A stretch of 64,000 nucleotides of DNA, taken from the NCBI GenBank assembly GCA_038087875.1, contig CM075989.1, positions 16,742,001 to 16,806,000 of the forward strand. Reading direction: 5' to 3'. The DNA is from Malacoraja senta (Eukaryota). This document shows, in pieces, positions 13,287 through 13,422 of this stretch (positions within the stretch are counted from its first letter, which is position 1; each line of letters starts with the position of its first letter). The notes below the pieces were generated by a model that saw only the letters and a list, made by a program, of their open reading frames with translations, was not told the origin of the DNA and did not search any database. The position numbers and the translations under genes are program-made.

Positions 13287-13340
13287 GGGGTGGGAGATTG
13301 CAACCTTCACGTGGTCCGCCCTGTTTCGACGAATGCAATC
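13287..13340 (+). ncRNA. HDV/CPEB3-like self-cleaving ribozyme, minimal P4 (predicted)
   Basis: P1 GGGGUGG/CCGCCCU with G1.U wobble; P2 GAUUGCA/UGCAAUC; P3 ACC/GGU; L3 UUCACGU; J1/4 GU; J4/2 CGAA. Confidence 0.85.
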
Positions 13341-13422
13341 AACCTGGCGTGAACAATCAAATAAGATCAAATAGAACAAGTTGTCCTACAACTTTAGGCT
13401 GTGCACACCATACGCAAGAAGA
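13287..13422 (+). mobile_element. Short (136 bp) non-autonomous retroposon with 5' HDV-like ribozyme and AAG-repeat tail, 12-bp TSD
   Basis: TSD AGGTAAGTTGAT at 13275-13286 and 13423-13434; second copy with identical 5' end at 8300; ends CGCAAGAAGA. Confidence 0.9.

What the first reader, a model, noticed from the sequence alone, without database searches (positions are those of the whole stretch)
13287..13422. A 136-bp retroposon headed by a minimal HDV/CPEB3-like self-cleaving ribozyme
Seen: the element is bounded by a 12-bp TSD (AGGTAAGTTGAT), and its first 54 nt give the full nested double pseudoknot. P1 is GGGGUGG (13287-93) with CCGCCCU (13316-22), including the G1.U wobble. J1/2 is GA. 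P2 is GAUUGCA (13296-302) with UGCAAUC (13334-40). P3 is ACC/GGU around L3 UUCACGU. J1/4 is GU, followed by a 5-nt stub instead of P4. J4/2 is CGAA, with the putative catalytic C at 13330. The predicted cleavage site (5' of G13287) is exactly the element's 5' boundary, and the second copy starts at the same nucleotide. Known: L3 UUCACGU, GU and CGAA match the mammalian CPEB3 ribozyme as I recall it, and HDV-like ribozymes process the 5' ends of R2/RTE-type non-LTR elements. Inference: this is a promoterless SINE-like family with no tRNA head. It would be cut out of host read-through transcripts by its own ribozyme and mobilised in trans, with the AAG tail and 11-12-bp TSDs suggesting an RTE-type LINE. 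I know of no description of such a family in cartilaginous fish, but I cannot search.
Basis: partly seen in the sequence, partly recalled or inferred. Interest (0 to 1): 0.93.

Follow-up and report, generated by a model that had tools for sequence, protein, structure and literature searches.

The report
Ribozyme-headed short retroposon from a LINE
This 136-base mobile element, present in thousands of copies, begins with a stripped-down version of the self-cutting RNA fold known from hepatitis delta virus and the mammalian CPEB3 gene, and it was built from the two ends of a longer jumping gene; the principle is already known, and self-cutting is not shown here.

Summary
Window 13287-13422 is a TSD-flanked 136-bp retroposon. 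Its first 54 nt draw a P1/P2/P3 double pseudoknot. In register, it shares L3 UUCACGU, G37-U38 and C-G-A-A with the published CPEB3 ribozyme. P4 is replaced by 5 nt.

The genome holds 5,708 heads within 3 mismatches. Copies start at the same G, end in (AAG)n and carry 10-12-bp TSDs.

I found the partner LINE, which has RTE-like architecture. Its ORF stop codon and 3' end are the element's last ~37 nt. In the one LINE 5' end I could read, head nt 11-54 plus body nt 55-77 lie upstream of the LINE ORF. The element is therefore an internally deleted LINE derivative, like R2 SIDEs or NARTc.

Cleavage is not shown:
- Rfam matches (CPEB3, 13.7 bits; a bacterial HDV-like family, 14.4 bits) fall far below gathering scores.
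- There are no compensatory changes within the family.
- Two oligo-dT RNA-seq runs show read-through and no pile-up of starts at G13287.

Ribozyme-headed RTEs and non-autonomous elements are already described. The P4-less form in a eukaryotic retroposon, and its CPEB3-type core, appear new.

Verdict: new variant of a known kind. Interest 0.58.

The parts
13275..13286 (+). left target-site duplication AGGTAAGTTGAT
   Evidence: same 12 nt at 13423-13434
13287..13422 (+). 136-bp non-autonomous retroposon (whole element)
   Evidence: (39 of 40 scored genome matches cover 1-136, one covers 1-134, at 97-100% identity)
13287..13293 (+). P1 5' strand; predicted cleavage is 5' of G13287
   Evidence: the MFE of the 54-mer contains P1
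13294..13295 (+). J1/2 (GA); G13294>A is a common family variant
13296..13302 (+). P2 5' strand
   Evidence: P2 also appears in the MFE of the whole element
13303..13305 (+). P3 5' strand
13306..13312 (+). L3 TTCACGT, nt 20-26, identical in letters and position to CPEB3 L3
13313..13315 (+). P3 3' strand
13316..13322 (+). P1 3' strand; G13318>A variant turns U.G into U-A
13323..13324 (+). G37 U38, the P1.1 partners of L3 as in CPEB3
   Evidence: invariant in 32 of 32 held heads
13325..13329 (+). 5-nt linker TTCGA in place of P4
   Evidence: Rfam alignments show 3-5 nt where the models have 16-20
13330..13333 (+). J4/2 CGAA; C13330 is the putative catalytic cytosine
   Evidence: C, A, A invariant in 32 of 32 held heads
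13334..13340 (+). P2 3' strand
13341..13385 (+). body; its first ~23 nt match the LINE 5' UTR just after the head
   Evidence: element nt 11-77 match at 91% over 67 nt, directly upstream of the LINE ORF
13378..13394 (+). 7-bp stem with 3-nt loop (AAGTTGT CCT ACAACTT); 5'-truncated copies begin just before it
13386..13422 (+). tail derived from the LINE 3' end: last LINE codons, stop TAG at 13395-13397, ~21-nt 3' UTR and the (AAG)n start
   Evidence: 35-39 nt at 87-100% identity to L090
13423..13434 (+). right target-site duplication
8172..8300 (-). second, decayed copy of the same family with its own TSD

Best explanation
The element is a short, internally deleted, non-autonomous derivative of an RTE-like LINE.

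Anatomy:
- nt 1-54: a P4-less HDV-like (CPEB3-type) ribozyme fold.
- The next ~45 nt: come from the LINE's 5' UTR.
- The last ~37 nt: the LINE's final codons, stop codon, very short 3' UTR and (AAG)n.

Proposed mechanism. Copies have no promoter of their own and are transcribed as parts of longer host or transposon transcripts. The head folds and cuts the RNA immediately 5' of G1. HDV-like ribozymes need nothing upstream, so this works at any insertion site. The released RNA keeps the LINE's 3' recognition module. The LINE protein binds it in trans, nicks a target and reverse-transcribes it (TPRT). This gives the (AAG)n tail, the 10-12-bp TSDs and a 5' junction that falls exactly on G1.

Shown: the anatomy, the copy number, the uniform 5' end, the shared LINE 3' end and (in one copy) the shared LINE 5' end.

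Inferred: that the fold is catalytically active, and that cleavage rather than a transcription start sets the 5' end.
For: Fold:
- 17 of 17 predicted pairs are present.
- The MFE of the 54-mer is P1+P3, and 0 of 2,000 shuffles fit as well.
- The core is identical in register to CPEB3. L3 UUCACGU is at nt 20-26 (mouse primer placed 18 nt from the cleavage site; human template). G37-U38 and C-G-A-A directly before P2' also match.
- Against CPEB3, pairs 5:32, 6:31 and 7:30 of P1, pairs 17:29 and 19:27 of P3, and all of P2 differ yet still pair (compared by eye with the sequence printed).
- The only Rfam matches at E <= 10 on 70 nt are CPEB3 (E 0.14) and HDV-F-prausnitzii (E 0.59). Both align end to end, with only P4 missing.
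- Natural P4-less HDV-like ribozymes exist and cleave in vitro (theta-ribozyme preprint, passages).

Family:
- 5,708 heads within 3 mismatches; reversed-pattern control 0.
- 7 of 7 printed loci start at the same G with TSDs.
- In the G45U subfamily, 85 of 100 listed copies end exactly at GGGG, 3 are ambiguous by one base and 12 are truncated or unclear (counted by eye).
- Common family variants in the head fall only at J1/2, the linker, the second J4/2 letter and a U.G>U-A change.
- C44, A46, A47, G37 and U38 are invariant in 32 of 32 held heads.

LINE:
- L090 ends ...LDLQL-stop, with the TAG inside the shared tail.
- The RT fragment's relatives are ~950-1,040-aa APE+RT proteins on 3.1-3.6-kb contigs.
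- At C4466, element nt 11-77 (91% over 67 nt) lie ~58 nt upstream of the first matched LINE residues, aa 31-61.

Precedent: promoterless RTEs with 5' HDV-like ribozymes (review PMC6765202).
Against: - No cleavage data exist.
- Rfam gathering scores are not reached: 0 matches on the whole window, no HDV-like match on 301 nt at E <= 10, and 13.7 bits against 35 and 14.4 against 44 on 70 nt.
- P4 is absent.
- Within the family, 0 of 17 pairs change on both sides, and shuffles reach every measure.
- In two oligo-dT RNA-seq runs, no place qualifies as one where many molecules begin (table 6 empty). 282+325 reads (X23) and 180+402 reads (X24) run on upstream of 13286/13287 into unlike sequence, against 94+683 and 101+100+722 reads running on past the 3' end. 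Much element RNA is therefore uncut, antisense or DNA-derived. The libraries appear unstranded, and the runs carry a coded species label that I could not tie to the window's genome.
- Only one LINE 5' end was seen. It lacks head nt 1-10 because of a 5' inversion.
- The partner LINE copies found are degenerate; the longest open frame in the first search was 449 aa.
Confidence: 0.65

Rival explanations
1. The head is a genuine HDV-like fold inherited from the LINE, but it is weak or inactive without P4. It may be kept for another role, such as binding the LINE protein, helping LINE translation or stabilising the 5' end. The uniform 5' end would then come from another process, for example a transcription start at G1.
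For: No pile-up of read starts at G13287 and abundant read-through. P4 is absent. HDV-like ribozymes of R2 and L1Tc are also credited with protein binding and IRES-like roles (review PMC6765202). The L1Tc head doubles as an internal promoter (abstract of PMC3383444 in the listing).
Against: The catalytic C, G1.U, the P1.1 partners and the A-A of J4/2 are all intact and invariant in held copies. P4-less relatives are active in vitro. Poly(A)-selected, apparently unstranded RNA-seq is a poor detector of 5'-OH fragments.
Confidence: 0.2
2. It is an ordinary SINE transcribed by RNA polymerase III or II from an internal promoter in the head, and the ribozyme-like pairing is incidental.
For: The precise, shared 5' end is also what a fixed transcription start would give. 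TTTCGA at 13325-30 loosely resembles a box B (my reading; consensus recalled).
Against: No tRNA was found. No tRNA, 5S, 7SL or snRNA match on 301 nt at E <= 10. I see no box A. The same head sits on the 5' UTR of a ~3.3-kb protein-coding LINE, which is not a Pol III unit. Twelve core letters are identical in register with CPEB3.
Confidence: 0.08
3. The double-pseudoknot drawing is a chance resemblance in an otherwise ordinary LINE-derived retroposon.
For: A structure-only descriptor is not rare: a mean of 3.2 loose hits per simulated window, and 21 of 200 windows with a hit with P2 >= 7 and L3 = 7. The Rfam E-values of 0.14 and 0.59 are individually insignificant.
Against: The identical L3, GU and CGAA in the same register add 12 fixed letters (about 6e-8 by my arithmetic). 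The fold starts on nt 1 of the element. Both Rfam matches are HDV-like, out of 4,227 families.
Confidence: 0.02

Closest known systems
Mammalian CPEB3 ribozyme (Rfam RF00622)
   Same: Seven-bp P1 opening with G1.U36. P3 of 3 bp. L3 UUCACGU at nt 20-26. G37-U38. C-G-A-A immediately before P2'. The predicted weak P1.1 is the same (one G-C pair plus U.U).
   Different: No P4 (5 nt instead of an ~18-nt hairpin). The P1, P2 and P3 sequences differ. It is multi-copy and sits at the 5' end of a retroposon rather than as a single intronic locus. It scores 13.7 bits against a gathering score of 35.
HDV-like ribozymes at the 5' ends of RTE, baggins, R2 and L1Tc LINEs
   Same: A ribozyme on the first nucleotides of a promoterless non-LTR element, proposed to free it from co-transcripts (review PMC6765202, passages). 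The partner here has RTE-like architecture and a trinucleotide-repeat tail.
   Different: Those ribozymes carry a P4, as far as I recall. I could not read Ruminski et al. 2011 (not held), so I cannot exclude that a similar one is listed there.
R2 SIDEs and T. cruzi NARTc (internally deleted, ribozyme-headed non-autonomous elements)
   Same: LINE 5' ribozyme plus LINE 3' recognition end, no ORF, mobilised in trans (abstracts in the listing).
   Different: Different LINE clade and host. Insertion is dispersed rather than rDNA-specific. Copy number is in the thousands. The ribozyme is minimal.
Minimal (P4-less) HDV-like ribozymes and theta ribozymes of gut phages
   Same: A double pseudoknot without the P4 domain, with the catalytic C first in J4/2. 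These are active in vitro.
   Different: Those are in phage genomes, often next to tRNAs. This one is in a eukaryotic retrotransposon and has a CPEB3-type core.

Membership tests
HDV-like self-cleaving ribozymes | Nested double pseudoknot in the order P1, J1/2, P2, P3, L3, P3', P1', J1/4, (P4), J4/2, P2' | tested here: met
   17 of 17 pairs are present. My descriptor finds it at 13287. P1+P3 is the MFE of the 54-mer.
HDV-like self-cleaving ribozymes | G1.U wobble closing P1 at the cleavage site | tested here: met
   G13287 with T13322. G.U in 18 of 24 distinct held heads.
HDV-like self-cleaving ribozymes | Catalytic cytosine as the first letter of J4/2 | tested here: met
   C13330 is present and invariant in 32 of 32 held heads. 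Its catalytic role is not testable here.
HDV-like self-cleaving ribozymes | P4 helix | tested here: not met
   Only TTCGA lies between G37-U38 and C44. P4-less natural members are known.
HDV-like self-cleaving ribozymes | Pairing supported by compensatory changes | tested here: inconclusive
   Within the family, 0 of 17 pairs change on both sides. Against CPEB3, several pairs differ on both sides and still pair (by eye).
HDV-like self-cleaving ribozymes | Site-specific self-scission leaving a 5'-OH on G1 | not testable with these tools
   The RNA-seq lay gave no sign of a discrete end, but the libraries are poly(A)-selected and apparently unstranded.
Rfam CPEB3_ribozyme (RF00622) and other Rfam HDV-like models | Covariance-model score at or above the gathering score | tested here: not met
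   0 matches at gathering. 13.7 bits against 35, and 14.4 bits against 44 for RF02682.
LINE-dependent non-LTR retroposon (TPRT) | Target-site duplications, simple-repeat 3' tail, 5'-truncated copies | tested here: met
   TSDs of 10-12 bp and variable (AAG)n in 7 of 7 loci. TSD-flanked ~47-nt truncated copies.
LINE-dependent non-LTR retroposon (TPRT) | 3' end shared with an autonomous LINE | tested here: met
   35-39 nt at 87-100% identity to the end of a LINE ORF plus 3' UTR.
Internally deleted LINE derivative (SIDE/NARTc type) | 5' end also shared with the same LINE | tested here: met
   Element nt 11-77 lie upstream of LINE ORF aa 31-61. This was seen in one copy only, and nt 1-10 are lost at an inversion junction.
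RTE clade (partner LINE) | Single ~1,000-aa APE+RT ORF, ~3.3-kb element, very short 3' UTR ending in short repeats | tested here: met
   Relatives are 950-1,040 aa with PF03372/PF14529 + PF00078 on 3.1-3.6-kb contigs. The stop codon lies ~21 nt before (AAG)n. No phylogenetic placement was made.
tRNA-, 5S- or 7SL-derived Pol III SINE | Head homologous to a Pol III gene | tested here: not met
   ARAGORN found none. Rfam at E <= 10 gave only a chance snoRNA match on 301 nt.

The most novel reading that the evidence does not exclude
The retroposon head and the mammalian CPEB3 ribozyme are homologous, not merely convergent. On this reading, the CPEB3 ribozyme descends from the 5' ribozyme of an RTE-type retrotransposon of this lineage that landed in the CPEB3 intron and was kept. 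This family would preserve the ancestral mobile form, in a minimal P4-less version that still cleaves. The evidence does not exclude it. The core is identical in letters and register (L3, G37-U38, CGAA, 7-bp P1, 3-bp P3), and CPEB3 is the lowest-E Rfam match.
Probability: 0.2. Interest if true: 0.8.

Novelty: new variant of a known kind. Interest (0 to 1): 0.58.

Why it matters
If the head cleaves, this would be a young family of thousands of copies in a large animal genome, spread by a 54-nt ribozyme.

- The ribozyme would be among the smallest natural HDV-like ribozymes, and the first P4-less one tied to a eukaryotic retrotransposon in the literature I could search.
- It would give a simple natural model for how promoterless LINEs and their parasites obtain exact 5' ends.
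- Thousands of sense-oriented copies inside genes could cut host transcripts.
- The CPEB3-type core makes the unexplained origin of the mammalian CPEB3 ribozyme testable by comparing RTE 5' ends across vertebrates.

If it does not cleave, it is an ordinary LINE-derived short retroposon with a relic fold.

Tried and rejected
**Rfam.** The whole window at gathering gave 0 matches. On 301 nt at E <= 10 there was only a chance snoRNA match.

**tRNA scan.** None found.

**Fold of the whole element.** Not better than shuffles, z = +1.57.

**Hunt for a LINE sharing internal junctions, using exclusion patterns.**
- Head end followed by a different body: 5 hits and 50 hits. All were indel variants or singletons.
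- Mid-tail preceded by a different upstream sequence: 42 hits, mostly 5'-truncated copies.
- Body start preceded by a different upstream sequence: 16 hits, all indel variants.
- These failed because the LINE shares more of the body than I assumed.

**Pfam RVT_1 search of the genome.** The top 30 loci were unrelated families. L012 looked like a head with a foreign body but is non-coding.

**Fetches that missed.** Two fetches aimed at LINE ends missed their targets (L092, L093).

**Sequencing runs.** No RNA holder was listed.

**Earlier findings of this scan.** Nothing for this genome or sequence.

**Literature.**
- No paper held all three terms 'HDV-like', 'ribozyme' and 'cartilaginous fish' other than a CPEB review.
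- Ruminski et al. 2011 is not held.
- bioRxiv supplements, which may list minimal-ribozyme motifs, are closed.

**Covariation within the family.** None.

**Not achieved.** An intact full-length partner LINE and a LINE copy with head nt 1-10.

Full report
**1.
In one search, AGGTAAGTTGAT stands at 13275-13286 and at 13423-13434, around a 136-nt insert. The first 54 nt pair as described:
- P1: 7 of 7 pairs, with two wobbles, one of them G13287.T13322.
- P2: 7 of 7 Watson-Crick pairs.
- P3: 3 of 3 pairs.
- Unpaired: L3 TTCACGT, GT, a 5-nt TTCGA, CGAA.

A second, decayed copy lies at 8172-8300 on the minus strand (87.4% over 135 nt). It starts on the same G, has its own TSD, and has lost 6 nt of the P1 3' strand.

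**2. It is a large, young family with a fixed 5' end.**
- The window's genome is 1.94 Gb. It gave 721 first-look candidates for the 136-mer. Of the 40 scored, 39 cover 1-136 and one covers 1-134, at 97-100% identity.
- The 54-nt head occurs 5,708 times within 3 mismatches (2,860 + 2,848). The reversed-pattern control found 0.
- In 7 of 7 printed loci the element starts at the same G, ends in a variable (AAG)n run, and has a 10-12-bp TSD.
- In an older subfamily (CGAA changed to CTAA; 1,413 pattern hits), I counted by eye 85 of 100 listed copies ending exactly on the terminal GGGG. Three were ambiguous by one base and 12 were truncated or unclear.
- TSD-flanked 5'-truncated copies of about 47 nt exist. 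They begin just before a 7-bp stem (13378-13394), as expected for target-primed reverse transcription.

**3. The head matches the CPEB3-type HDV-like fold, minus P4.**
- A mouse primer described as lying 18 nt from the cleavage site reads G-TTCACGT-CGC... (eLife paper PMC10919898, passage).
- The human CPEB3 template printed in a bioRxiv structure paper (10.1101/2022.09.22.508989, passages and the sequence section) gives a 7-bp P1 with G1.U36, a 3-bp P3, L3 UUCACGU at nt 20-26, G37-U38, and C57-G-A-A directly before P2'.
- The window element has the same letters at the same positions from nt 1 to 38. Then come 5 nt where CPEB3 has P4, then C-G-A-A and P2'.
- The helices differ in sequence but still pair: P1 pairs 5:32, 6:31 and 7:30; P3 pairs 17:29 and 19:27; and all of P2 (my comparison by eye).
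- Rfam found nothing at gathering on the whole window, and nothing HDV-like on 301 nt. On 70 nt, with the laxer filters, the only two matches among 4,227 families are CPEB3_ribozyme (13.7 bits, E 0.14, gathering 35) and HDV-F-prausnitzii (14.4 bits, E 0.59, gathering 44). Both align end to end, with 3-5 nt where the models have 16-20. The family's curated test is therefore not met. The alignments show why: P4 is missing.
- P4-less HDV-like ribozymes occur naturally and cleave in vitro (theta-ribozyme preprint, passages).

**4. Chance.**
- A loose structure-only descriptor hits a mean of 3.2 times per simulated 64-kb window. A hit with P2 >= 7 and L3 = 7 occurs in 21 of 200 simulated windows. 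Pairing alone is weak evidence.
- The 12 identical core letters, the start on nt 1 of the element, and the Rfam result make chance negligible.
- The isolated 54-mer's MFE is exactly P1+P3 (-12.4 kcal/mol). 0 of 2,000 shuffles fit the three helices as well.

**5. The partner LINE shares both ends.**
- 3' end. A tail-anchored pattern (2,913 hits) listed, among 100 copies, three with a different, shared upstream sequence. One of them (L090) is the 3' end of a LINE ORF ending ...LDLQL-stop. The TAG corresponds to window 13395-13397, and only about 21 nt of 3' UTR precede (AAG)n. The element's last 35-39 nt match it at 87-100%.
- Family. It has 2,078 first-look candidates. Copies are 72-87% identical to the query in protein, and no open frame exceeds 449 aa.
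- Architecture. An RT fragment (partial RVT_1 match) has relatives that are 950-1,040-aa APE+RT proteins on 3.1-3.6-kb contigs. This is the RTE layout.
- 5' end. Using the closest relative as a probe, I reached one LINE 5' end at C4466. There, element nt 11-77 (91% over 67 nt) lie about 58 nt upstream of the first matched LINE residues, aa 31-61. Residues 63-110 onward lie inverted next to it, a twin-priming-like 5' inversion that removed head nt 1-10.
- Older subfamily. One listed continues further into this 5' UTR, and joins the LINE 3' end at a short TTGA microhomology (by eye).
- Conclusion. The element is LINE 5' UTR plus LINE 3' end, an internal-deletion derivative.

**6. RNA.**
- Two oligo-dT paired-end RNA-seq runs, under a coded species label, laid 2,002 and 2,118 reads on the element. 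Of these, 93-94% run on into unlike sequence, so the element is seen as part of longer transcripts.
- No position qualified as one where many molecules begin or end.
- 607 and 582 reads continue upstream across the predicted cleavage site. 777 and 923 continue past the 3' end.
- Mate directions are equal, so sense and antisense cannot be separated.
- This argues against near-complete cleavage of steady-state poly(A)+ transcripts. It does not test co-transcriptional cleavage or unstable 5'-OH products.

**7. Variation.**
- Among 32 held heads (24 distinct), no pair changes on both sides, and shuffles reach every measure. The family is too uniform to give covariation.
- Variants common enough to be listed in the read and contig lay fall, within the head, at 13294 (J1/2), 13318 (U.G to U-A), 13327 and 13328 (linker) and 13331 (second J4/2 letter).
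- None breaks a helix, L3, G37-U38, C44 or the A-A. By my arithmetic, four non-pair-preserving variants all falling in the 8 model-free positions of 54 has a probability of about 2e-4. The set was defined after the fact, several sites are CpG, and the tolerance of the letter after the catalytic C is recalled from HDV work.

**8. Mechanism and rivals.**
- Most likely (0.65): copies are transcribed within longer RNAs. The head cuts 5' of G1. The LINE protein recognises the shared 3' module and copies the RNA to its end.
- Rival 1 (0.2): the fold is real but inactive or kept for another role, and the 5' end is a transcription start.
- Rival 2 (0.08): a Pol III or Pol II SINE head. This fits poorly with the same head on a protein-coding LINE.
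- Rival 3 (0.02): chance.

**9. Compared with what is known.**
A review (PMC6765202, passages) states that RTE and baggins elements carry HDV-like ribozymes and lack promoters. [quoted passage not shown] NARTc/L1Tc is another precedent (listing). The principle is therefore known. What I did not find in print is a P4-less version in a eukaryotic retroposon, or one with the CPEB3 core. The key paper by Ruminski et al. was not readable.

**Verdict:** new variant of a known kind.

Noticed in passing
L014, L016, L018, L019, L021, L024 and others (genome loci): A discrete class of TSD-flanked, ~47-nt 5'-truncated copies. All begin at CAAGTTGTCC, just before the 7-bp stem, as if reverse transcription often stops there or this module alone is enough for mobilisation.
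   Followed up: partly
genome places listed: A recurrent shorter variant lacking the 18 nt AACCTGGCGTGCACAATC (head joined directly to AAATAAGATC) appears in many independent places. It may be a deletion subfamily that itself amplified.
   Followed up: no
G000:C4466:189813-193080 (L094, L095): A LINE copy with its 5' segment (5' UTR to about aa 61) inverted next to the rest (aa 63 onward). This is the pattern expected from twin priming.
   Followed up: partly
genome places: At least three RTE-like LINE families are present. The tail-sharing one is degenerate, with many TGA stops. Two others (48% and 40% identical to P0001) have open frames of 976-1,029 aa, some without stops. Their ends were not examined.
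   Followed up: no
window 13100-13280: The element is inserted at the very end of a broken ORF reading ...GINIEFYNFR-stop. The apparent splice-donor motif CAGGTAAGT is this ORF's last codons. The motif resembles the C-terminus of Penelope-like elements as I recall it; this was not verified.
   Followed up: no
window 12104-12640: A 178-aa open frame that looks like the C-terminal part of a LINE ORF2. No Pfam match at E <= 0.01.
   Followed up: partly
window, e.g. 18661-18741, 30465-30545, 7335-7414, 56631-56824, 61707-61787: An ~80-nt repeat (also at L090 3301-3381) occurs about 30 times in the window at 76-93% identity, and in most fetched loci. It is a far more abundant, unrelated short repeat.
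   Followed up: no
window 14968-15040 and about 18093-18160: (GT)n/(GCGT)n and (AT)n/(AC)n microsatellites. They flooded the structure-only ribozyme descriptor with false hits.
   Followed up: no
runs X15, X16 and the list: Contigs of runs labelled as two other coded organisms hold over 13,000 pieces of the element, and also this very insertion's left flank plus head (3 differences in 122 nt).
   Followed up: partly
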